Shown here piece by piece: positions 1 through 55,160 of a DNA stretch of 64,000 bases (positions are counted from its first letter, which is position 1; the number at the start of each line of letters is the position of its first letter). Made by a program: the position numbers and the translations under genes. The stretch spans positions 67,952,001-68,016,000 of the forward strand of contig OZ024747.1 in assembly GCA_964016885.1 (NCBI GenBank), read 5' to 3'. The notes beneath the pieces are model-generated. The model worked only from the letters and a program-made list of their open reading frames with translations, was not told the DNA's origin and did no database searches. Source of the DNA: Eledone cirrhosa (taxonomy: Eukaryota).

Positions 1-297
1 AAACAATAAAGGTTTCCATCCCGGGCCAGCAACGACCCAGTGCAGCAAAGTGAACTTGTACGACATAATAATTCTGAGTCCCGGGAAAAATATATACTAA
101 TGCTAACTCTAAAAGATCTAAAACAAGCTACAAGAAAGTTCGTACGAAATAAAGGTAGAATACGGAGAAATAAGTTCAGAATCCACCCCGCCCAAAAGAA
201 AAGCGAAGCAAGAAATACTGAAACGAAAAAATAAGGCATAAGTGCCACTAAGTACTCAATACTTGAGGTAGTAGAGTGGGTAATAGGAACCAGTAAG

Positions 298-391
298 ACC
301 CCGACAGCTGAGCTCAAGCCGTTTCGACGGCTAATTCTGGACTAAATGAACATTTATCCTGGTATTTAAATAGCCGATCTTCTCAAGGGGT
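298..391 (-). ncRNA. Type I hammerhead ribozyme, U3-A8 variant
   Basis: Exact reverse complement of 2816-2909. Confidence 0.75.
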
Positions 392-521
392 AATTCCATA
401 TATGGTCAAAGTGATTGTCAAAAATTCCATATATGGTCAAAGTGATTGTCAAAAATAAGGCATAAGTGCCACTAAGTACTCAATACTTGAGGTAGTAGAG
501 TGGGTAATAGGAACCAGTAAG

Positions 522-615
522 ACCCCGACAGCTGAGCTCAAGCCGTTTCGACGGCTAATTCTGGACTAAATGAACATTTATCCTGGTATTTAAATAGCCG
601 ATCTTTTCAAGGGGT
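522..615 (-). ncRNA. Type I hammerhead ribozyme, U3-A8 variant (core UUGAAAA)
   Basis: As 2816-2909; the only difference seen is at core position 7 (G>A), the unconstrained position. Confidence 0.75.
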
Positions 616-753
616 AATTCCATATATGGTCAAAGTGATTGTCAAAAATTCCATATATGGTCAAAGTGATTGTCAAAAATAAGGCATAAGTGCCACTAAG
701 TACTCAATACTTGAGGTAGTAGAGTGGGTAATAGGAACCAGTAAGACCCCGAC

Positions 754-1722
754 CTCGACCTCGAAAACGACCTGTACTACCCATACAGGAAACCTAATGA
801 CAATCTGCACTACATCCACCGCCGATCAAACCATCCTAGGAACATCACAAACAACCTGGTCAAAAACATCTCCCTCCGCATATCCCGTTTGTCAGCTAAT
901 GAGCGGATATTCGATGAACATGCGCCTTATTACAACCAGGCCCTCAAGCGGAGTGGTTTCCGGGAGGAAATATCCTACTGTCCAGATCCCATTAGCGGAA
1001 CCAGCAGGAGACACCGCCGCTCACGCAATGTAACATGGTTCAATCCTCCCCACAACGCAGAGGTGACTACTCCCATCGGGAAACTATTCTTTAGGCTCAT
1101 TGAAAAACACTTCCCATTACAACACCGCTACCACAACATAATTAACAAAAATACCATCAAACTCTCTTACAGCACTACACCAAACTTCGCACAAAACATC
1201 GTCTCCTCTAACAACAAAAAACTCAACCCCGATGGCAGAAATAACCTAAATAGCAGTGGAGAACCGACCAGGAGGTGTAACTGCCCGGATAGATCTATTT
1301 GCCCACTCGACAATAGATGCAGAGACCGTAATGTGATCTACCAGTGCAACGTGAGGACGGATACCTCCAACAAAGCCTATATAGGACTTACCGCATGTGA
1401 CTTCAAGACCCGGCTATACCAACATAGACATACCTTCCGAAACCCGGCCCGGCGTCACGCCACTACACTTTCGGGCCACATATGGGACCTCAAGGACAAC
1501 AACATTACCTATGATCTCACTTGGAGATTACTGTCCAGAGCCAATTCTTACACGGGAGGACGCCGTCCGTGCAATTTATGCTCGGAGGAAACTTTACAAA
1601 TGCTGTTTTCGACGGACCAACTCCTAAACAAGAAAGATGAACTGGTTACTGCATGTAAACATAGATTGCGTAGGACTTACCTCGCCCTCAAACCCCATAA
1701 TGACCCGGGGGGGGTAGACTAG
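754..1722 (+). pseudogene. 5'-truncated copy of the PLE ORF (RT C-terminus + GIY-YIG)
   Basis: Matches 4286-5248 except a synonymous change and a G8 vs G7 run (ends PGGVD* vs PGG*). There is no true start. Confidence 0.9.
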
Positions 1723-2815
1723 GGCTATAACACCCCAGTTGCCGATTTTGCAATGGGTAACCCCTGCTTGCCAAGGAAGACGTAAGATCTTCTTTGTATT
1801 CTTTTATCGCATCCTTTATTTCCTTCCCCCCTCTCTCCTTTGTCCTTCTACCCCAGCTCTTCTCCTTTGTCGGCGTCTTTTCTCGCCCACCCGAGGATGC
1901 CCTTTGGCCCCATGTAGCCTTAGTACCCCCACTCCCCCCTCCCCTAGTCTTTGATAGATTTGGCGGACTCCGCCCTTTATAGCAGTTGGCTTAGACCCCG
2001 GATACTTGCCCCCCTTTTCCGACCGCTCCCACTATTCTCTGTGCCCTCTATATTTCTTAGTGGCACTTATGCCTTATTTTTTCGTTTCAGTATTTCTTGC
2101 TTCGCTTTTCTTTTGGGCGGGGTGGATTCTGAACTTATTTCTCCGTATTCTACCTTTATTTCGTACGAACTTTCTTGTAGCTTGTTTTAGATCTTTTAGA
2201 GTTAGCATTAGTATATATTTTTCCCGGGACTCAGAATTATTATGTCGTACAAGTTCACTTTGCTGCACTGGGTCGTTGCTGGCCCGGGATGGAAACCTTT
2301 ATTGTTTATTTCGTGGTAGTCTCTTTAGTATTTTGGCCCCTTTTGTTGACCAGTCACCGTATCATTTACGTACTTATACCTCTTAAAAGGGTCCTTGCCT
2401 AATTCGTCCCACCTAGTTCCTTTACTTATTTCCTTATTTATTTATTTATTTATTTATTTACTTCTTTCTTTCTTTCTTTATTTTATTCTCGCCTAACAAT
2501 AGCCTGACACCTAGGTCGTAGAATTTAATTTTTTCTTTACACTTATTTGCTTTTCTTCACTCTCAGTATTTTTTCTTTCCTATTTTTACCCCCCATTGTT
2601 CTACCTACCGTTCCGACTTCCTCCCCCTCCCCCTCCCCTGTATCTTCTTTGACCTCATGCCCAGCTGTAGCTGGCACTACCAACGCTTGATTGGGTCTAC
2701 TCCACCCCCTCCCCTCTTTCTCCTACTGGCAGGTTTAGCCACCATCTCCCCTACTAATCTGCAACCACAGAATTACTACTGATTTTTGACAATCACTTTG
2801 ACCATATATGGAATT

Positions 2816-2909
2816 ACCCCTTGAGAAGATCGGCTATTTAAATACCAGGATAAATGTTCATTTAGTCCAGAATTAGCCGTCGAAACGGCTTGAGCTCAGC
2901 TGTCGGGGT
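2816..2909 (+). ncRNA. Type I hammerhead ribozyme, U3-A8 variant, in PLE pLTR
   Basis: Stem I ACCCC/GGGGT; core TTGAGAA; stem II GA(T)CGGCTA...TAGCCGTC with a long loop; GAAA; stem III ACGGC-(T TGAGCTCA)-GCTGT; GUC cleavage triplet 2902-2904. Confidence 0.78.
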
Positions 2910-3094
2910 CTTACTGGTTCCTATTACCCACTCTACTACCTCAAGTATTGAGTACTTTGGTGCGTTATGGTCCACCTGGTTCCTTACCACATTTCCTTCG
3001 TTATCTAGCTCCTACTCCCGTAGTAGAGCACTTTCCGACCCTACCACGCCGTATCCAGACTTTTCCGCTAAGCTCAATTCATTTCACCCGCACC

Positions 3095-5248
3095 ATGCGA
3101 AAACACAACATTGACTTCTCTACCAAGAACATCCCAATCCCACCGAAAAAACTTTACCTTCGGATGCTCACGCAAAAAATTGATCTATTTGCGAAAAGAC
3201 TTAGATGGAGAACTTTTTTCTATGACAGATATTGCGACAACCAAGACTTCGGCACCAAGGAGAGATTCGGATTTATTACCTACAAATCTCCGCCCCTGAA
3301 CCCCTTGCTCGCACCCTTCGAGAATGACCTCTTCCAACTGGTCAAGAACATTAAATTTAAACCCAGACACAACCGATTCCTACAAAAACTCCGTAGCAAC
3401 TTAACAGAGTATGATAACACAAATGACATCATGGTGCATTCGGATAAAACTGGGAACCTATACTTTGTCAACCCTGACAGATACCACACACTGATCAGGA
3501 GCAGCCTAAACTCCACCTATAAAAAGGCCAACCACTCTTGCATCGAGGACATAAATCGAGATGGACAACAAATCACCTCCAGCCTCGGGGTCGCCGACCG
3601 CACGGAACCTCTAGACCCACGGACACCATACTTCACACTGAAGGACCATAAATCCGATTTTGACCGTAAACCCTCCATCAGGCTTATTAACCCAACGAAG
3701 TCCGACATAGGGAGAATCAGCAAAAAAATCCTAGACCGCGTGATACCAAAAGTCAAGCAACACACCCGACTTAGCCTATGGATCAACACCCAGGAAGTAA
3801 TCTCCTGGTTCAGCAATATGGAGGATAAACGAGAAACTAAATTCATACAGTTCGACATAGAGAGCTACTATGCTTCAATCACCTTACCGCTACTTACTGC
3901 CGCCTTGCACTTCGCCGAAACACTTGTGCCCATCACCGACCAGGAAAGAAAAATCATCCTCCACGCCAGGAAGACAGTCTTACTCTTTGACGACTCTAAA
4001 TGGATAAAAAGAGCTCCCGACTCACCCTTCGACGTCAGCATGGGCGCCACGGATTCGGCGGAGGTCACTGATCTTATAGGATTATTCCTAATAGCCAAAC
4101 TCACTGATATGTTTCCTGCATTCGGTGGTGGATTGTACCGTGATGATGGGCTCCTTACCCTTAAAGGGTACAACCCCAGTAGTACAGATCGGGTCCGGAA
4201 ACAATTAATCAGATTCTTCCGCGACTGGGGATTTAAAATAACCCTACAAACGTCCCTGACCCGAGTAAACTTCCTGGACGTAACCCTCGACCTCGAAAAC
4301 GACCTGTACTACCCATACAGGAAACCTAATGACAATCTGCACTACATCCACCGCCGATCAAACCATCCTAGGAACATCACAAACAACCTGGTCAAAAACA
4401 TCTCCCTCCGCATATCTCGTTTGTCAGCTAATGAGCGGATATTCGATGAACATGCGCCTTATTACAACCAGGCCCTCAAGCGGAGTGGTTTCCGGGAGGA
4501 AATATCCTACTGTCCAGATCCCATTAGCGGAACCAGCAGGAGACACCGCCGCTCACGCAATGTAACATGGTTCAATCCTCCCCACAACGCAGAGGTGACT
4601 ACTCCCATCGGGAAACTATTCTTTAGGCTCATTGAAAAACACTTCCCATTACAACACCGCTACCACAACATAATTAACAAAAATACCATCAAACTCTCTT
4701 ACAGCACTACACCAAACTTCGCACAAAACATCGTCTCCTCTAACAACAAAAAACTCAACCCCGATGGCAGAAATAACCTAAATAGCAGTGGAGAACCGAC
4801 CAGGAGGTGTAACTGCCCGGATAGATCTATTTGCCCACTCGACAATAGATGCAGAGACCGTAATGTGATCTACCAGTGCAACGTGAGGACGGATACCTCC
4901 AACAAAGCCTATATAGGACTTACCGCATGTGACTTCAAGACCCGGCTATACCAACATAGACATACCTTCCGAAACCCGGCCCGGCGTCACGCCACTACAC
5001 TTTCGGGCCACATATGGGACCTCAAGGACAACAACATTACCTATGATCTCACTTGGAGATTACTGTCCAGAGCCAATTCTTACACGGGAGGACGCCGTCC
5101 GTGCAATTTATGCTCGGAGGAAACTTTACAAATGCTGTTTTCGACGGACCAACTCCTAAACAAGAAAGATGAACTGGTTACTGCATGTAAACATAGATTG
5201 CGTAGGACTTACCTCGCCCTCAAACCCCATAATGACCCGGGGGGGTAG
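3095..5248 (+). CDS. Intact PLE polyprotein (717 aa from ATG 3095; open frame from 2948): reverse transcriptase + GIY-YIG endonuclease, Naiad-like by inference
   Basis: RT motifs QFDIESYY, SMGATDSAEVTDLIG, LYRDDGL, VNFLDVTL, YRKP, SNHP; linker WFNPP and CNCxxxxxCPL; GIY-YIG motif VIYQCNV...AYIGLT...FKTRLYQH; C-terminal CNLC and LLN. No internal stops. Confidence 0.95.
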   Translation: MRKHNIDFSTKNIPIPPKKLYLRMLTQKIDLFAKRLRWRTFFYDRYCDNQDFGTKERFGFITYKSPPLNPLLAPFENDLFQLVKNIKFKPRHNRFLQKLRSNLTEYDNTNDIMVHSDKTGNLYFVNPDRYHTLIRSSLNSTYKKANHSCIEDINRDGQQITSSLGVADRTEPLDPRTPYFTLKDHKSDFDRKPSIRLINPTKSDIGRISKKILDRVIPKVKQHTRLSLWINTQEVISWFSNMEDKRETKFIQFDIESYYASITLPLLTAALHFAETLVPITDQERKIILHARKTVLLFDDSKWIKRAPDSPFDVSMGATDSAEVTDLIGLFLIAKLTDMFPAFGGGLYRDDGLLTLKGYNPSSTDRVRKQLIRFFRDWGFKITLQTSLTRVNFLDVTLDLENDLYYPYRKPNDNLHYIHRRSNHPRNITNNLVKNISLRISRLSANERIFDEHAPYYNQALKRSGFREEISYCPDPISGTSRRHRRSRNVTWFNPPHNAEVTTPIGKLFFRLIEKHFPLQHRYHNIINKNTIKLSYSTTPNFAQNIVSSNNKKLNPDGRNNLNSSGEPTRRCNCPDRSICPLDNRCRDRNVIYQCNVRTDTSNKAYIGLTACDFKTRLYQHRHTFRNPARRHATTLSGHIWDLKDNNITYDLTWRLLSRANSYTGGRRPCNLCSEETLQMLFSTDQLLNKKDELVTACKHRLRRTYLALKPHNDPGG

Positions 5249-6346
5249 ACTAGGGCTATAACACCCCAGTTGCCGATTTTGCAATGGGTAACCCCTGCTT
5301 GCCAAGGAAGACGTAAGATCTTCTTTGTATTCTTTTATCGCATCCTTTATTTCCTTCCCCCCTCTCTCCTTTGTCCTTCTACCCCTGCTCTTCTCCTTTG
5401 TCGGCGTCTTTTCTCGCCCACCCGAGGATGCCCTTTGGCCCCATGTAGCCTTAGTACCCCCACTCCCCCCTCCCCTAGTCTTTGATAGATTTGGCGGACT
5501 CCGCCCTTTATAGCAGTTGGCTTAGACCCCGGATACTTGCCCCCCTTTTCCGACCGCTCCCACTATTCTCTGTGCCCTCTATATTTCTTAGTGGCACTTA
5601 TGCCTTATTTTTTCGTTTCAGTATTTCTTGCTTCGCTTTTCTTTTGGGCGGGGTGGATTCTGAACTTATTTCTCCGTATTCTACCTTTATTTCGTACGAA
5701 CTTTCTTGTAGCTTGTTTTAGATCTTTTAGAGTTAGCATTAGTATATATTTTTCCCGGGACTCAGAATTATTATGTCGTACAAGTTCACTTTGCTGCACT
5801 GGGTCGTTGCTGGCCCGGGATGGAAACCTTTATTGTTTATTTCGTGGTAGTCTCTTTAGTATTTTGGCCCCTTTTGTTGACCAGTCACCGTATCATTTAC
5901 GTACTTATACCTCTTAAAAGGGTCCTTGCCTAATTCGTCCCACCTAGTTCTTTTACTTATTTCCTTATTTATTTATTTATTTATTTATTTACTTCTTTCT
6001 TTCTTTCTTTATTTTATTCTCGCCTAACAATAGCCTGACACCTAGGTCGTAGAATTTAATTTTTTCTTTACACTTATTTGCTTTTCTTCACTCTCAGTAT
6101 TTTTTCTTTCCTATTTTTACCCCCCATTGTTCTACCTACCGTTCCGACTTCCTCCCCCTCCCCCTCCCCTGTATCTTCTTTGACCTCATGCCCAGCTGTA
6201 GCTGGCACTACCAACGCTTGATTGGGTCTACTCCACCCCCTCCCCTCTTTCTCCTACTGGCAGGTTTAGCCACCATCTCCCCTACTAATCTGCAACCACA
6301 GAATTACTACTGATTTTTGACAATCACTTTGACCATATATGGAATT

Positions 6347-6440
6347 ACCCCTTGAGAAGATCGGCTATTTAAATACCAGGATAAATGTTCATTTAGTCCA
6401 GAATTAGCCGTCGAAACGGCTTGAGCTCAGCTGTCGGGGT
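6347..6440 (+). ncRNA. Type I hammerhead ribozyme, U3-A8 variant, second pLTR
   Basis: Identical to 2816-2909; predicted cleavage after C6435. Confidence 0.78.
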
Positions 6441-6450
6441 CTTACTGGTT

Positions 6451-7030
<580 letters not shown>

Positions 7031-7280
7031 TAGTTATATGAAGAGAGGGGAGGTGCAATATATTTACATGAGTTTGAGGGACTTCGTTTGAAAGCATACA
7101 GATTAGATTTAACTAAGACTTAACAGATTAGTTATTGTTAGCAATAACAGCATGGTTTCCAACTTTGTTTTCTTAGCAATTGCATAGAATAATCTTAATT
7201 TTCCAGACTTACTTTTACTAAAATTTATACTGAAATATTTACAGACAATGCCTCGGTTAATGTAGAAACTTTTAATAACA

Positions 7281-7660
7281 GTTTCTACTTTAGGCACAAA
7301 GCCAGCAATTACCCCAGTGTATTACTAATGCTTTATTTTGTCGACCCCGTAAGGATGAAAGGCAAAGTTAACCTCGACGGGATTTGAAGTCAGACCCTAA
7401 TGGGACGTAACTATGCTAGAACGCATGACGTCCAAACTACCGATACTGCCAATTCACTGCTCTTTTAATAATTGTTGCGACTTTTGGCACAAGGCCACCA
7501 ATTATTCCAGTGCATTACTGGTACTTTATTTTATCGACCCCGTAAGGATGAAAGGCAAAGTTAACCTCGGCGGGATTTGAACTCAGATCGTAAAGGGACG
7601 TAACTCTATGCCGGAGAGCATGGCGCCCGACCCTCTACCGATACTGCCAATCCACTGCTC
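7281..7660 (-). mobile_element. Two tandem tRNA-derived SINE copies (family 1)
   Basis: Reverse complement of ggcagtatcggtagagg...gagttcaaatcccgccgaggttaactttgcctttcatcc...gtcgataaaataaagtaccag; B-box-like GTTCAAATCC; many copies in the window. Confidence 0.85.
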
Positions 7661-8102
7661 TAAACTTTTTAATAATATTAGTTTCCAACGTACGGATGCC
7701 TATCTGCAATATGTGTGATCGTGGTGGCAAGTAAGAGATCTTTCTCATATTCTGATGATCAAAATTCACTGAAAAACAACATTGGTGTAACTACCTTGAA
7801 ATCTATCAATACACATTAAGGGTCAGTCCTCCTCGGGGTCCCGGCGGACAGGATGGATACACTTGACAATGGCAGTTAATAATTGACAACTATAGTTCTG
7901 ATTCTGAACTGTAGTCAACAATAGTTTACATCAATACATCAATAACTCTTAAAACTTATTCTGAGCGCCAAACTAATAACTTTAATTTTCATACTTTAAT
8001 AAAAAGTGTCAACCCTCTACTTAAAATTTCGAAGAACATTCTCCTCCGAAACATCTGATATTTACACCCATTTGGCATGTTAGTTTATATATTCTATGAA
8101 TA

Positions 8103-8283
8103 TTTGGCAGTATCGGTAGAGGGTTGGACGCCATGCTTTCTAGCATAGTTACATCTCTTTACGATCTGAGTTCAAATCCCGCCGAGGTTAACTTTGCCTT
8201 TCATCCTTACGGGTCGATAAAATAAAGTACCAGTAATGTACTGGGTAATTGCTGGCCTTGTGCCAAAAGTGGAAACAATTATT
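8103..8283 (+). mobile_element. tRNA-derived SINE (family 1)
   Basis: A-box-like TGGCAGTATCGG, B-box-like GAGTTCAAATCCC, shared body and tail. Confidence 0.85.
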
Positions 8284-8649
8284 AACTATTGTTTGTCTAA
8301 ATAAACTCTCACTAGTTTTTATTTTTAATATATAGTTGTTGTTTGTTTTATCCCTCTTGTTTTTTTAACAGTTTTAGTTAAATGAAGTTATAACAATACA
8401 AATTCACATTCAATTTTCTTATTTCTTTCTATATAATATACTAGAATGTACTTTGATATAGTTGCTTACAGATTCAAAAACATCAACAATAAAAATGATT
8501 TGATGTATGGAAAAAAAATAACAAACGCATCTGCTTGTTTGCCAGAAAGAAAGGAAAACAAACAACAAAAGAGAAGTAATTAAAAGAATATATAAGAATA
8601 TATTCAACATGTAGGTTTAGATTTCAGATATTAACAAAAATATGTGGAT

Positions 8650-8655
8650 ACACAT

Positions 8656-8692
<37 letters not shown>

Positions 8693-9069
8693 CATACATA
8701 CACACACACACACACAAACACACACTCACATGCACAAACACACACACACACATGCAAACACATACGCACACACGCGTACACACACACGCACACATACGTA
8801 CACACACACACGCACACATACACACACATACATACATACACACATACACACAAACACGCACACATACGTACACATACACACACACATACACACACATACA
8901 TACATACATACACATACACACATACATACATACACACACACACACATATATATGTATGTGTATGCGTAATAATATATGTGTATGTATGTGCATGTATATA
9001 TATGCATATATATATATGTGTGTATATGCATAATAATATGTGTATGTATGTGCATGTATATATATATGC

Positions 9070-9122
<53 letters not shown>
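8650..9122. repeat. Compound (CA)n/(TA)n/(TG)n microsatellite
   Basis: Visible in sequence. Confidence 0.95.
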
Positions 9123-9123
<1 letters not shown>

Positions 9124-9536
9124 ACGACAAGAAATAAGCAGTAATGACGAAACAGTGTACAAGTACTTTTAGAAATTTGACATAACTGTGGAGCAATATT
9201 TCATTTTTCCCCTCTGCACAAGGTCAGCAAATACCCAGTACTGTATGCATCAAAGCATGGCATCCGACCCTCTACCGATACTACCAATTCACGAAATTAA
9301 TGTTAATACTTTGTTGATGGGTCATGCAAACAAGATGTAAACATTGTTGGGACATGTTGTCTCTTTGTCTTGCTTCTCTTTCTAACTTGATCTTGTCGCT
9401 GCCATGGTGTAATCTGAAAGTGGATGTGGCGCCATTGCAAAAGACCCTTTAGTAGTGTAATGTAAGTAGAGTCCACTACTTGGATCTCAAGTGCTCTAAA
9501 TAGTAGGGTGACTATCTATCTATCTATCTATCTATA

Positions 9537-9567
<31 letters not shown>

Positions 9568-9585
9568 ATATCTATCTATCTATCT

Positions 9586-10465
9586 AGGTGCGACGACGCC
9601 CTCGGAGAAGCCCTAGACATGGAGGAGGACGAACTGGCCAGCCTGTTCGGTAGGACATTCAGCCCGGGACCTATGGACAACTTCCAGAAGTCCCTGGCCT
9701 GGCAGTGCTACCGAGGGGCTTTACCCGTTCGAGAAAGGCTCTACAGACACGGGCGCCCGGGTAGGGACCCCGCCAAAAAGATCTGTCCCAGATGCGTGTG
9801 CGACGAGGAAACCGTTGCACACGCATTAGTACACTGCTCGGGCGTAGCCGATCTGTGGGGCTATGTCGAACAACTGCTGTCAAGGGTGGGACCGATCCGG
9901 TTAACCACCGAGTCTATTGTAATGATCAAGCCGCCTCCCCCCTTCAAAGATGAAGCAGAGGCGGTGTTTCTGTGCGTAATAGCCATGGCGAAAGAGGTTG
10001 TATGGTGGACGCGTCTGAAAGGACTGAGGTCGGGCACCTTTCTCTCTGGCCAACAACTGGTCCGTTTCTTCCGATATCATTTCAGAAGAAGGATCAGGAT
10101 GGAGAGAGAGGTGCTGCACCCCAGCCGTTTCTATGAAAGATGGGTGAAAGTGGCGAGAATGGCCCGTGTGAATGGGCCTTCACTCTACATCAGACTATAG
10201 GTGAGGAAGATGAAAGACCAAGGGAGCACCCCTTCTCTGTGCTCCTGAGGAGAAGGGTTGCACACTTTTTTCGGGGGTGTGTGCGACCCCCCAAGGCGCC
10301 TCCTCTCTATTGAGGATTTTGTTAAAAATTTTATTTTTTGTTATATCTTATTTTATTTTTATATTTTGTTATTGCCTCCTCCTTATTGAGGACGCCTTTT
10401 TGTGTAAACTCCCCCCTTTGTACTTGTCCCACTTTTGATGCCCTAGTGGCAAATAAAAGAAATAT
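9586..10465 (+). mobile_element. 5'-truncated Tx1/L1-type LINE (ORF2 C-terminus + 3'UTR) within (CTAT)n
   Basis: Protein CDDALGEALDMEEDELASLFGRTF...CPRC...HALVHC...SLYIRL* is near identical to the C-terminus of 35159-37843. Same 3' end gtggcaaataaa; (CTAT)n on both sides. Confidence 0.92.
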
Positions 10466-10476
10466 ATCTATCTATA

Positions 10477-10527
<51 letters not shown>

Positions 10528-10544
10528 ATATCTATCTATCTATA

Positions 10545-10885
10545 GCCTTAGAAAGTCCGTTGTTGGACATAGGCATCTCGGAGCTGCGCCTTCTTTGCCG
10601 ATCCTGATCCAGAAGGTGACGCCTGTGGTCCATCTCTTGTCAGTTATTCTGGCAATGTGTTATGTCCACTTCCATTTTGTTTTGCTAATGATTTTTCTAG
10701 GATGTCACGACCTTTTCTTTTTTCCTCGGATCCATTCGGCAGTTTTCCAATCTCACCATGTAATGTTTGACATGGTCCTTTCGTGGGCTAGTCACAGTCT
10801 TCGTAAGTTTAGTGCTTGCTTGTTTGTTAGGCTCCACGTTTCTGATCCGTAGGTGACAGTCGGCACAATACACTGGTAATAAACT
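10545..10885 (-). mobile_element. Degenerate RTE-like LINE 3' fragment
   Basis: Disrupted translation IVPTVTYGSETWSLT...HERTMSNITW*DWKTAEWIR resembles the post-RT region of RTE-type LINEs. Confidence 0.6.
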
Positions 10886-10888
10886 AAT

Positions 10889-11057
10889 GCCACCACCACC
10901 ACCACCACCACCACCGCAACTATTACTATTACTACTACTACTTCTGATGCATACAACAACTACTACTACTACTACCACCACCACCACCACCACCACCACC
11001 ACTACTGCTACTACCACCACCACCACCACCACCACTACTGCTACTACCACCACCACC

Positions 11058-11089
<32 letters not shown>

Positions 11090-11207
11090 CACTGCTACTA
11101 CTACTACTACTACTACTTCTGATGCAATTACTACAACAACTACTACTACTAATAATAATAATAATAATAATACTACCACCACCACCACTACTGCTACTAC
11201 TACCACT

Positions 11208-11249
<42 letters not shown>

Positions 11250-11337
11250 GATGTTGCTGCTGGTACTACAACTATAACTACGACTACTACGAGAACTACT
11301 GCTACTACCACCACCACTACTACCACCACCACCGCCC

Positions 11338-11395
<58 letters not shown>

Positions 11396-11396
11396 A
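10889..11396. repeat. (ACC)n/(ACT)n trinucleotide array
   Basis: Visible; the poly-T/V/S ORFs are artefacts. Confidence 0.95.
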
Positions 11397-12189
11397 ATTA
11401 CGTTTTAAGACGATTGGCATGACTTTGTTATTTAAGATGTAACTACTGCATTACCTTTTGGAAAACGAGTCGACTCAAGACTTGTGAGTCAAATTGAATT
11501 AATGGAAACTATATGGCCACCGGTCGAATGGATTGTACCTGTCTTTAAAAAGAACAAGCCTTGTTACATATTGGATCACGCTGAATGGATTTGGAAATTA
11601 CGTTAAGGGTATGTATATCAGTGGAATACCCAACCATTTATACGTTAATTATTGAGTTGCACGTTTTGTTTATGAAACAACTGGAACACTAATCGTCGAA
11701 AACGACGGAGGATTCATCATGTTAACGACTTTTGGAAGGGATTGAAAGCAAAGTCGATCCTTGGGTCATTTGAACTCAAAATGATTGGTTCGTGCTGTTA
11801 ACAAGAAATTCGTGTAAGGAGATAAGAAAGTAAAGAAAAAAGGATCCTTAAATTCTGATAGGGGCGTCGTCTTGACTCACGACGTGTCTTGGGTTTTTTA
11901 AATGTGGTGATGCCAGTTCCTTTAGAGAAATAAATAAACGAATAAATAAATAAATAAATAAATAAATAAAGAACGTGACAAAGAACGCTAGAGGAATAAT
12001 CCACCCCAGTACTTCACTGGTACTTTATTTATCGACCTTGAAAGGTGAAAGGTAAATTTGACCTTGGCGTGATTTGAAATAATTGCTCAGTGAGCCGCAA
12101 CACCTACTGAGACATTCGATGCTTCTAACGACACTGCCAATTCATCACCTTCGTAAGGTGGAAATCATATCATCGGTGTTCATATATAC

Positions 12190-22433: not shown

Positions 22434-22599
22434 ATTTTATTTTTATAAATATACATATATATTTATTTATTTTTATAAATATATATATATTTATTTATTT
22501 TTATATATATACATACATATATATACATATATATATACATACATATATATACATATATATATATATTTATTTATTTATCTCTATCTATATATATATATA

Positions 22600-22791
22600 G
22601 GATAAAGTATGACCCCGACGGCAGAGCTCAAACCGTTTCGACGGCTATTTCTGGTCCAGAAATAGCCGTCAAAACGGCTTGAGCTCTGCCGTCGGGGTCA
22701 TACTTTTTCCTATTACCCACTCTACTACCCTAAGTATTGAGTACTCTGGTGCGTTATGGTCCATCTGGTTCCTTACCACAATTCCTTCGTT
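22600..22791 (+). mobile_element. Fold-back PLE pLTR mini-insertion in (TA)n
   Basis: Homologous to 2866-3002; inverted arm 22600-22654 ends at tcc|TA; forward arm ends at ttcgt|T(TA). Confidence 0.9.
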
Positions 22792-24434: not shown

Positions 24435-24606
24435 ACACCTCAGGGAAAGAGCGCTTCTAGACATGTCCATAGCATGCGAGAAAATCTCAAAAGGCGGTGG
24501 GAGATACTATCACGTGATACACCGGTCAAAATATGTGTGTATATATACATGTGTATGTATGTATGCACATATATGTCTGTACCTCTCATTATATATATAT
24601 ATATAT

Positions 24607-24772
24607 AACGAAAAAAATGTGGTAAGGAACCAGGTGGACCATAACGCACCAAAGTACTCAATACTTAGGGTAGCAGAGTGGGTAATAGGAACGAGTAGGA
24701 CCCCGACGGCTGAGCTCAAGCCGTTTCGACCGTCGAAACGGCTTGAGTTCAGCCGTCGGGGTCCCACTCGTT

Positions 24773-24775
<3 letters not shown>
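24607..24775 (-). mobile_element. Fold-back PLE pLTR mini-insertion in (TA)n
   Basis: Long arm on minus ends ttcgt|TA; short plus arm 24731-24775 ends ttcc|TA. Confidence 0.9.
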
Positions 24776-24828
<53 letters not shown>

Positions 24829-24830
<2 letters not shown>

Positions 24831-24930
24831 AAAAAGTATGTCCCCGACGGCAGAGCTCAAGCCGTTTCGACGGCATTGAGTACTCTGGTGCGTTATGGTC
24901 CATCTGGTTCCTTACCACAATCCCTTCGTT
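24829..24930 (+). mobile_element. Inverted + forward PLE pLTR mini-insertion in (TA)n
   Basis: 24829-24874 is the inverted HHR 3' half ending ttcc|TA; 24875-24930 is forward, ending ttcgt|TA. Confidence 0.9.
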
Positions 24931-24933
24931 ATA

Positions 24934-25039
<106 letters not shown>

Positions 25040-45250: not shown

Positions 45251-46328
45251 ATAATTATACGATGTAACCCCAGCAGATAGGGTCCACCTATGGGAGTCAT
45301 GCCGTATATAATGTGAAGGTGCGTAGCTTAGTGGTTAAAGTAATCGTCTCAAGATCGTAAGTTCCATTCCTGGACCGAGTAGTGCGTTGTCTCTTTGAGC
45401 AAATTACTTCATTTCATGTTGCGCCAGTCCACTCTGTTTTTTCACTTGTCACCCAGTATTGTCCTACCAAATTCGCTGAGAACTACATTAAGTTATATAT
45501 GTCTGTGGAACACTCAGCTACTTTCAGTTAAATTTCACGAGCATGCTGTTCAGTTATTGGAACTACAGGAACACTCGTCGACAGAAGCGACGGAGGTCCA
45601 CTAACAGCAGTATATAATATTGGCCTGGTGATTTATTTATTTCTTCATCCCAAATTAGTCGTTCAATTTCAGCAGGAGTCACTGGCTGTTCGTCAAGCCA
45701 TCTTGTCCACGGGGTACGGCTGTGATGTACCACTCAACCGAGAGTGTAGAGTTTAGGCCTTCTTTTTTTTCTTCTTTTTATTTAATTTCAGACATCTTGC
45801 CTAGTCTCTAAAAAGAACTATTTTATCTTGTTATATTTTATTTTATTTTATTTTTTCCCTTCTTCTCTGATACCGACGATCTATCTATTTCAGCATCAAG
45901 TGACATATTGAACCTCATTTGCCTGTAAACCAATACAAACAACAAAATAAAGACGGACTACCACTAAACAACCGTCGCCTCGTTCACTGTTCAGTCCCCT
46001 GCAGATTTCACTAAAAACATTTCCCACGATTTCAGCTGACACAAGATATTGGTGTAAATTTCTCTCAGACTTTTACCTACTTTACTTCAGTTTGTGTGTA
46101 ACATTAGACATTATTTCCATTCTGCTCTGAACCTCTTTTTCAGCCCTGCTCTGAAAACGTCATGTTATGTTAAATGAAAAGAAACTTCACTCCCTGAAAT
46201 AATAAATAAATTGTTATATAATATGAGTCGACTCTTCCGGTCTATCTTCCTCCATTTTCTTTTCATTTCGGTCAATTTGGATGCATATACAGAATATATT
46301 ATATGCATCATATATATATATATATATA

Positions 46329-46490
46329 GGAACGAGTAGGACCCCGACGGCTGAGGTCAAGCCGTTTCGACGGCTAATTCTGGACTGAATGTCCAGAATT
46401 AGCCGTCGAAACGGCTTGAGCTCAGCTACCCTAAGTATTGAGTACTTTGGTGTGTTATCGTCCACCTGGTTCCTTACCACATTTCCTTCG

Positions 46491-46492
<2 letters not shown>
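46329..46492 (+). mobile_element. Fold-back PLE pLTR mini-insertion in (TA)n, with internal deletion
   Basis: Inverted arm ends ttcc|TA; forward arm ends ttcgt|TA; homologous to 2866-3002. Confidence 0.9.
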
Positions 46493-46541
<49 letters not shown>

Positions 46542-54978: not shown

Positions 54979-55101
54979 CGTCGAAACGGCTTGAGCTCTG
55001 CCGTCGGGGTTAAACATTTCCCTATTACCCACTCTACTACCCTAAATATTGAGTACTCTGGTGCGTTATGGTCCATCTGGTTCCTTACCACACTTCCTTC
55101 G

Positions 55102-55103
<2 letters not shown>
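54979..55103 (+). mobile_element. PLE pLTR mini-insertion
   Basis: Homologous to 2878-3002; ends ttcgt|TA. Confidence 0.9.

Positions 55104-55160
<57 letters not shown>

What the first reader, a model, noticed from the sequence alone, without database searches (positions are those of the whole stretch)
226..753. Apparent birth of a retrozyme: 224-bp tandem unit with one hammerhead per unit, built from the adjacent PLE
Seen: on the minus strand a 224-bp unit recurs (anchor at 298, 522, 746). It is a chimera of the HHR-bearing pLTR piece (~2783-2955), a 31-bp internal duplication (aattccatatatggtcaaagtgattgtcaaa) and ~27 nt from a distant part of the 3'UTR (~2055-2080). The joins carry microhomologies (ctt; attttt). 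Established: animal non-LTR retrozymes are tandem units of a few hundred nt with one type I HHR that yield circular RNAs and are thought to use PLE enzymes. Inference: cleavage at 527|526 and 303|302 would release a 224-nt monomer. Exact repetition of the same chimeric junctions fits rolling-circle reverse transcription of a mini-circle, so this may be a retrozyme caught next to its autonomous parent.
Basis: partly seen in the sequence, partly recalled or inferred. Interest (0 to 1): 0.85.

Follow-up and report, generated by a model that had tools for sequence, protein, structure and literature searches.

The report
One-off ribozyme repeat from Penelope insertion
This 224-base repeat with a predicted self-cutting RNA motif occurs only at this spot, inside one very young insertion of a Penelope-type jumping gene, and was likely made there by the copying enzyme slipping back and re-copying, which would be one way that small ribozyme repeats (retrozymes) get started.

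Summary
The array is real: 2.35 copies of a 224-bp chimeric unit at 227-753, with two complete hammerheads (U3-A8 core), not three. It is the inner end of one arm of a head-to-head insertion of a young, abundant Hydra-clade Penelope-like element (PLE) in (TA)n. All three junctions occur only here in the 3.0-Gb assembly, so it has not spread. The two arms of these insertions usually share one template, and here the other arm is native, so the array was likely made during this insertion. A ribozyme-made circle is not needed: a sister insertion carries 66 copies of a hammerhead-free 55-bp ORF piece at the same inner position, another a 217-bp two-hammerhead dimer from one back-jump. The unit also lacks the distal of the family's two reverse-transcription start sites. 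Verdict: a retrozyme-format array born from a PLE by back-jumps and re-copying, not a shown retrozyme and probably not rolling-circle on a mini-circle. Cleavage, expression and the locus itself are untested by reads. Earlier scan notes report two-armed retrozyme families on other DNA of this genome; none covers this element. The bolder lead is telomerase-like repeat addition by a PLE reverse transcriptase.

The parts
227..753 (-). 2.35 x 224-bp chimeric tandem array; inner (5') end of the left arm of a head-to-head PLE insertion
522..615 (-). complete type I hammerhead, core UUGAAAA (U3-A8; N7 changed at 606), predicted cut 527|526
298..391 (-). complete type I hammerhead, core UUGAGAA (U3-A8), predicted cut 303|302
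698..753 (-). first, partial unit: only GUC|GGGG and downstream pLTR; no complete hammerhead; joins the right arm with 1 shared base at 753
474..476 (-). junction J1 (CTT microhomology; also 250-252 and 698-700): pLTR 2957 to 3' UTR 2056
451..456 (-). junction J2 (ATTTTT microhomology; also 675-680): 3' UTR 2081 to pLTR 2783-2788
423..425 (-). junction J3 (ATT microhomology; also 647-649) giving the 31-bp duplication
1..252 (-). native 3' UTR of the left arm's first pass; continues outside the window through a third hammerhead (cut 897 nt beyond 303|302) to the distal start site and (TA)n at G000:C7:67951306
753..2904 (+). right arm, inner 5'-truncated PLE copy (RT thumb, GIY-YIG, 3' UTR, pLTR)
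2905..6455 (+). right arm, full 3531-bp PLE unit plus 20 nt, ending at the proximal start site next to (TA)n
3095..5248 (+). intact 717-aa ORF with RWR, DKT, YRDD, CxCX5C, VIYQC/YIGLT, CxxC and CxH motifs (Hydra-clade PLE)
   Evidence: PMC8557442 passages
2816..2909 (+). parent hammerhead in the pLTR (second copy 6347-6440)
6453..6931 (.). (TA)n target tract, right flank

Best explanation
The array is the inner end of one arm of a young two-armed Penelope-like insertion and was likely written during that insertion, when the growing DNA end jumped back at short microhomologies and then re-copied the stretch it had just made. Shown: the layout, the junctions, their uniqueness, the near-identity of the two arms, and sister insertions with back-jumps and arrays. 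Inferred steps: (1) the PLE protein cut (TA)n and primed two cDNAs on one RNA (or RNAs of one source) at the family's two start sites, 100 and 20 nt past the hammerhead cut; (2) the left cDNA ran about 950 nt, jumped back to +53 (J1), ran 176 nt, slipped 31 nt (J3); (3) its end re-annealed 224 nt back through ATTTTT (J2) on a template that already held J1 and J3, most simply the complementary DNA strand being made as the arms were joined, and did so twice; (4) the last pass stopped at the hammerhead and was joined to the right arm. Which polymerase did step 3 (PLE RT or a host end-joining enzyme) is open. The product has retrozyme format: if transcribed and cut it would release a 224-nt RNA, probably through a double-hammerhead fold, but it lacks the distal start site and has no offspring.
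For: Junctions unique to the locus in a family with 2045 exact hits to a 37-mer of the hammerhead. Arms share a template: over 38 polymorphic sites 57 of 71 head-to-head pairs differ at 10% of sites or fewer (mean 0.056, median 0) against 9% of random pairs (mean 0.40). Here the left arm's first pass equals the right arm's outer copy over about 950 nt but for a 2-nt CT slip, while only 1 of 170 other arm matches of 800 nt or more has no substitution and the rest have 3 or more; the right arm is native across all junction points. Back-jumps towards the start region recur in independent insertions: L077 (+73), L095 (+62, +60) among 166 loci, and L107 (+191), L118 (+195), L226 (+30) from targeted searches. 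L078 has 65.9 x 55 bp of ORF sequence with no hammerhead at the inner junction, a 3-nt microhomology, 61 exact junction hits all in that locus. L226 has a 1.9 x 217-bp two-hammerhead dimer from a single back-jump. The J2/J3 stop point (+3409) is also the inner end of arms in L022 and L056.
Against: The array ends 3 nt past a cut site, a family hotspot (4 of 140 arms in 4 positions against 7 in the 68 flanking positions, Poisson p about 0.001, window chosen after seeing the data); that suits an RNA template with a cleaved 5' end better than a DNA template, although a stall at the stem III hairpin would give the same end. 14 of 71 arm pairs differ at more than 10% of sites, so two templates per insertion do occur or the arms have diverged. 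The second J2 needs the same 6-nt realignment twice. Three adjacent L078 units share one variant, which points to some later DNA-level growth in that array. Arrays are rare (1 of 147 loci taken without regard to structure), so the class rests on three loci.
Confidence: 0.55

Rival explanations
1. The insertion left only 1.35 units (one templated 79-bp re-copy across J1); the second full unit came later by replication slippage or unequal exchange between the two 79-bp direct repeats.
For: Needs J2 only once. The 79-bp perfect direct repeat exists (D9). Adjacent L078 units share a variant, so DNA-level growth of such arrays happens. Li et al. 2026 (10.64898/2026.07.22.740005, Discussion) propose local amplification by unequal crossover.
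Against: The locus is very young (3 substitutions and 1 indel in 2172 bp between the tandem copies), leaving little time; the two full units already differ at one base, where a still later duplication would be expected to be identical. In L078 3 of 5 variant events lie in the 4-nt junction (binomial p 0.003; 2 of 4, p 0.03, without the first unit; post hoc), which suits re-alignment at each round.
Confidence: 0.25
2. One reading: a 224-nt hammerhead-made RNA circle (or cleaved multimer) from a parent array existed first; the RT switched onto it through the shared 26-nt UTR piece, rolled 2.35 times and ran off when the ribozyme cut.
For: Explains exact repetition of three junctions and the end at the cut site in one step. 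The circular 224-mer is predicted to keep the hammerhead fold (stem I 0.87, II 0.59, III 0.75). Arms run through uncut hammerheads and give exact multi-unit tandems of the full element (five units at C1:437.2 Mb), which fits circular or multimeric templates. A parent could lie on the other haplotype or have segregated away.
Against: No parent in the assembly. The left arm matches the native right arm better than 169 of 170 other arm matches, so a parent would have to stem from the same source copy. A circle with three ligated junctions cannot easily form from native RNA. The hammerhead-free L078 array shows that a ribozyme circle is not required. The circle's folding energy is unremarkable (z -0.46).
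Confidence: 0.15
3. Assembly or library artefact (chimeric long read or local mis-assembly).
For: No independent read or contig spans the junctions; the runs on offer carry other alleles and so are probably other individuals or species.
Against: The junctions have microhomologies and land where other insertions of the family jump or stop; the flanks and arm ends are those of 117 of 131 parsed insertions; 527 bp lies well inside a long read (general knowledge; the sequencing method is not known to me).
Confidence: 0.05

Closest known systems
Metazoan non-LTR retrozymes (Cervera and de la Pena 2020, PMC7229834, passages and Discussion read; Li, Clavereau and Pollet 2026, 10.64898/2026.07.22.740005, parts 1-3 of 5 read)
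   Same: Tandem non-coding unit of 170-400 nt, GC under 45%, one type I hammerhead per full unit, two complete motifs in a row (Li's working definition), derived from a PLE pLTR.
   Different: Single locus, no dispersed copies; embedded in a coding PLE insertion; chimeric unit with three junctions; U3-A8 PLE-type core; lacks the distal start site; expression, cleavage and circle untested. Li et al. saw cleavage in only 1 of 9 such dimers.
Hydra-clade Penelope-like elements (Craig et al. 2021, PMC8557442, passages read)
   Same: RWK-like (RWR) and DKT motifs, CxCX5C linker, CxxC and CxH in the C-terminal GIY-YIG, hammerhead in pLTR, (TA)n target, partial tandem plus inverted 5'-truncated copy, tail on one end.
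   Different: Tail here is 80 nt (starts at +20 and +100), not 30-40; short tandem arrays at the inner junction are not in the passages I read.
Poseidon PLE of Anolis, two internal RT start sites (Frangieh et al. 2024, PMC11167929, parts 1-2 of 4 read)
   Same: Both strands cut and extended in AT-rich DNA, two start sites that define the tail, uncleaved RNA used as template.
   Different: Different clade; start sites here end in TAT, matching the (TA)n target; back-jumps and re-copying are not described in the parts read.
Repeat addition by telomerase and DRT10 (PMC12632851, passages read)
   Same: L078's template has an A-B-A' pattern (ATT ... ATT, 55-nt period), and PLE RTs are telomerase relatives.
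   Different: No dedicated template RNA; period 55 is far longer than the DRT10 inserts that worked (10-mer yes, 20-mer no); the 224-bp unit has three junctions and does not fit a simple A-B-A' loop.
U3-A8 hammerhead variant of Schistosoma Cercyon PLEs (Cervera and de la Pena 2014, PMC4209133, part 1 of 4 read)
   Same: U3-A8 core covariation, short helix I, long helix II, palindromic loop III able to form a dimeric ribozyme.
   Different: Here helix III is a 6-bp stem and helix II carries a large structured loop.

Membership tests
Non-LTR retrozyme | Tandem non-coding unit of about 170-400 nt, GC under 45% | tested here: met
   224 nt, 39% GC, 2.35 copies
Non-LTR retrozyme | Complete type I hammerhead in at least two consecutive units | tested here: met
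   522-615 and 298-391, U3-A8 core; the third unit is incomplete; no Rfam hammerhead hit at E <= 1 in 1-12000
Non-LTR retrozyme | Dispersed multi-locus family, i.e. mobilised as a unit | tested here: not met
   J1 3 hits, J2 2, J3 2, all at this locus (exact matches, one assembly)
Non-LTR retrozyme | Carries the cis sites needed for copying by the helper PLE | tested here: inconclusive
   unit keeps the +20 start but lacks +54 to +100; 117 of 131 parsed insertions use +20 and +100, 2 use +20 twice, 12 have one unclassed end
Non-LTR retrozyme | Self-cleavage to monomer | not testable with these tools
   folding only: double-hammerhead pairs 0.66-0.99 in the array transcript; 4 of 140 arms end at the cut
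Non-LTR retrozyme | Expressed as linear and circular monomer RNA | not testable with these tools
   no RNA holder listed
Hydra-clade PLE (host element) | RT with RWK-like and DKT motifs, C-terminal GIY-YIG, CxCX5C linker, CxxC and CxH | tested here: met
   RWR 37, DKT 117, YRDD 348, CNCPDRSIC 572, VIYQC 591, YIGLT 606, CNLC 670, CKH 698 against PMC8557442; atlas neighbours at 0.99
Hydra-clade PLE (host element) | Hammerhead in pLTR, (TA)n target, tandem/inverted layout with tail | tested here: met
Hydra-clade PLE (host element) | Placement in the Hydra clade on an RT tree | not tested
   no reference PLE proteins fetched; Pfam 0 hits, PDB 0 hits
Telomerase-like repeat addition (L078 and this array) | Repeated realignment at an A-B-A' template by the RT itself | tested here: inconclusive
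   L078 has the pattern and junction-clustered variants; enzyme and template (RNA or DNA) cannot be told from sequence; the 224-bp unit does not fit a single A-B-A' loop

The most novel reading that the evidence does not exclude
The reverse transcriptase of this Penelope-like element can fall into telomerase-like repeat addition at the end of its cDNA, writing minisatellites de novo in one insertion (66 x 55 bp in L078); when the re-copied stretch holds the hammerhead (224 bp here, 217 bp in L226) a cleavable, circle-forming retrozyme precursor is born in a single step, and the rare ones that keep both start sites found the retrozyme families.
Probability: 0.3. Interest if true: 0.8.

Novelty: new variant of a known kind. 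Interest (0 to 1): 0.5.

Why it matters
That animal retrozymes derive from PLE pLTRs is already argued in print from co-occurrence and trees (Li et al. 2026), but how a first short hammerhead tandem arises is not shown in the papers I read. This locus and L226 give base-resolved examples with the parent in the same insertion, and they point to back-jumps and re-copying rather than to a pre-existing circle. The hammerhead-free 66-copy array in the same family suggests that PLE insertion itself seeds minisatellites, and offers exact templates for asking whether a telomerase-related retrotransposon RT adds repeats. As a single element the 224-bp array is probably a dead end.

Tried and rejected
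Rfam scan of 1-12000 at E <= 1: no hammerhead family among 48 matches, mostly microsatellite-driven miRNA models; the motif was assigned by inspection and folding. Pfam and PDB sequence search: no hit for the ORF. Sequencing runs: no RNA holder listed. Contigs of X1-X4 over 1-3100 carry alleles absent from the window at near-full depth, and X1, X2, X5 contigs stop at the junctions with native continuations while X17 laid nothing: no test of this locus. A 14-mer repeated at 209-239 bp gave 219 hits; of the 30 loci examined 28 were separate short insertions with a TA tract between and 2 (L107, L118) were single back-jumps with half a hammerhead. A 16-mer of the 5' half of the hammerhead repeated at periods 147-270 found only this locus and L226 (exact matches in both copies needed; other periods not searched). 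Two scripts had errors and their +100 results were discarded (redone in 62); BLAST's '+103' end is +100 plus a chance match to TA. The isolated hammerhead's folding energy is not better than shuffles (z 0.20). Earlier scan notes by sequence and by words gave nothing for this element. Considered and rejected: that the array is a separate element inserted beside the PLE (no target tract or break between array and arm); that three independent jumps recurred by chance (J3 and J2 alternate from the same cDNA end).

Full report
Numbering. '+n' is the position in the 3531-bp PLE unit counted from the first base after the hammerhead cut (window 2905 = +1).

Observation. The array is there as described: 227-753, period 224, 2.4 copies. 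Read on the minus strand, which is PLE sense, each unit is +1 to +53, junction J1 (CTT shared) to 26 nt of 3' UTR (+2683 to +2708), J2 (ATTTTT) to +3411 to +3441, J3 (ATT) back to +3409 and on to +3531. The full units differ at one base. Only two hammerheads are complete (522-615, 298-391). The core is UUGA(G/A)AA ... GAAA ... GUC with a 5-bp helix I, a 7-bp helix II with a large loop and a 6-bp helix III capped by a palindrome. Rfam has no match, but the U3-A8 swap is described for Schistosoma Cercyon PLEs (PMC4209133, part 1 of 4). The three helices form in the isolated motif (pair probabilities 0.98, 0.63, 0.76) and in a circular 224-mer (0.87, 0.59, 0.75); in the array transcript the two motifs are predicted to pair crosswise as a double hammerhead (0.66-0.99). 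Activity is untested.

The host element. [quoted passage not shown] Pfam and PDB gave nothing; the ESM atlas puts it next to unnamed 690-710-aa animal clusters at 0.99, some neighbours with GIY-YIG. No tree was made. The family is young and abundant: 2045 exact hits to a 37-mer of the hammerhead. I parsed 166 other loci: 19 best BLAST neighbours, 55 from the first 100 rows (the rest were already held) and 92 of the first 100 of 140 rows (8 already held); some fetched stretches do not reach the inner junction. Of 131 insertions seen with both arms, 117 are head-to-head with one outer end at +20 and the other at +100, 2 have +20 twice, and 12 have one unclassed end. This matches the two internal start sites and both-strand extension shown for the Anolis PLE (PMC11167929, parts 1-2 of 4). 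Our locus is one such insertion: left arm from +100 at C7:67951306, right arm from +20 at window 6455, both against (TA)n. The array is the inner end of the left arm.

Has it spread? No. J1, J2 and J3 give 3, 2 and 2 exact hits in 3.0 Gb, all in the window; the DNA search found the whole unit only here, though it scored only 40 of 483 candidates.

Where was it made? The arms of one insertion mostly share a template: 57 of 71 pairs differ at no more than 10% of 38 polymorphic sites (median 0) against 9% of random pairs; 14 pairs differ more, and conversion between arms was not excluded. Here the left arm's first pass matches the right arm's outer copy over about 950 nt with no substitution and one 2-nt slip; only 1 of 170 other arm matches is as close. 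The right arm reads natively through +53, +2683, +2708 and +3409. The junctions therefore most likely arose in this insertion.

How? Back-jumps towards the start region are a habit of the family: L077 and L095 in the 166 loci, L107, L118 and L226 from targeted searches. One such jump made a second two-hammerhead dimer, L226 (1.9 x 217 bp); it and our locus are the only hits for periods 147-270. The key control is L078, where the inner end carries 65.9 copies of a 55-bp ORF piece with no hammerhead, joined through AAT, unique to that locus. Long arrays were seen in 1 of 147 loci taken without regard to structure (95% interval 0.02-3.7%) and 0 of the 19 best neighbours. So exact repetition at this position needs no ribozyme-made circle. 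Because J3 and J2 alternate from the same cDNA end and J1 recurs three times, the re-copied template must already have held J1 and J3; the complementary strand made while joining the arms is the simplest such template (inference; microhomology-driven templated insertion is known from end joining, of which I saw search listings only). L078, with one junction, an A-B-A' template and 3 of 5 variant events in the 4-nt junction (post hoc), fits repeated realignment as in telomerase and DRT10 (PMC12632851 passages), though its period is far longer than DRT10 tolerated and three neighbouring units share a variant, which suggests some later DNA-level growth.

Against my reading. The array stops 3 nt past a cut site, where 4 of 140 other +100 arms stop against 7 in the 68 flanking positions (p about 0.001, post hoc; 8 arms that resumed after an indel were left out). 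A parent on the other haplotype cannot be excluded from one assembly. A later duplication through the 79-bp repeat needs fewer repeated events. No reads test the locus.

Is it a retrozyme? It meets the format (size, GC, two complete motifs in a row) used by Cervera and de la Pena (PMC7229834, passages and Discussion) and Li et al. (10.64898/2026.07.22.740005, parts 1-3 of 5), but fails on dispersal, and the unit lacks +54 to +100 with the distal start. Li et al. found cleavage in 1 of 9 dimers tested, and the Anolis PLE hammerhead cut only with its protein, so release of a monomer is uncertain. Whether the array is transcribed is unknown; Drosophila Penelope has an internal promoter (PMC2377424, abstract only). 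I file it as a retrozyme-format by-product, not as a member.

Novelty. PLE origin of retrozymes and complex tandem/inverted PLE insertions are in print (also PMC3846280, passages). In eight searches of the held library I saw no listing on short tandem arrays written at PLE inner junctions; the library lacks most subscription papers, and I read no supplements, where such cases may lie. Earlier scan notes describe 310-, 422- and 467-bp two-armed retrozyme families elsewhere in this genome (unchecked except that I found the same two-armed, two-start layout for this coding element); none covers this element. Verdict: new variant of a known kind; interest 0.5, carried more by the three-locus class and the repeat-addition lead than by this single array.

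Noticed in passing
L078 2317-5942 (G000:C1:91489116-91492741): 65.9 copies of a 55-bp piece of the PLE ORF, 99% alike, no hammerhead, at the inner junction after at least five tandem full-length units; junction found only in this locus; 3 of 5 variant events in the 4-nt junction.
   Followed up: yes
L226 1409-1814 (G000:C22): 1.9 x 217-bp dimer with two complete hammerheads made by one back-jump (+3338 to +30) in an arm starting at +20.
   Followed up: yes
L147, L207, L176, L051: Arms that end at or within 3 nt of the hammerhead cut (4 of 140), a hint of cleavage in vivo or of a stall at the ribozyme.
   Followed up: partly
L135, L157, L155, L076, L206, L222, L212, L049: 8 of 140 arms from the +100 start stop at +57 to +75, the stretch where back-jumps land (+53 to +73).
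   Followed up: partly
window 22597-22791, 24602-24935, 46326-46497, 54979-55108: Short, older head-to-head remnants of the same pLTR in (TA)n, cut in helix II so that they hold only the 3' half of the hammerhead; such 200-bp elements often sit side by side elsewhere.
   Followed up: partly
G000:C1:437200143-437214389 and C1:91473233-91487439: Five full-length PLE units in exact tandem in single arms (periods 3531 and about 3543), which suits a circular or multimeric template.
   Followed up: no
L150 153-958 and 2628-3308: The same complex inner junction occurs twice 2.5 kb apart, probably a later segmental duplication.
   Followed up: no
window 7269-7661, partial copies at 9240-9298 and 11739-11778: Two diverged tandem copies (83%) of a 193-bp dispersed repeat; looks SINE-like (label from recall, not from a call).
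   Followed up: no
window 9466-10200: Fragment with a zf-RVT hit (PF13966, E 4e-6), the 3' end of a LINE-type element.
   Followed up: no
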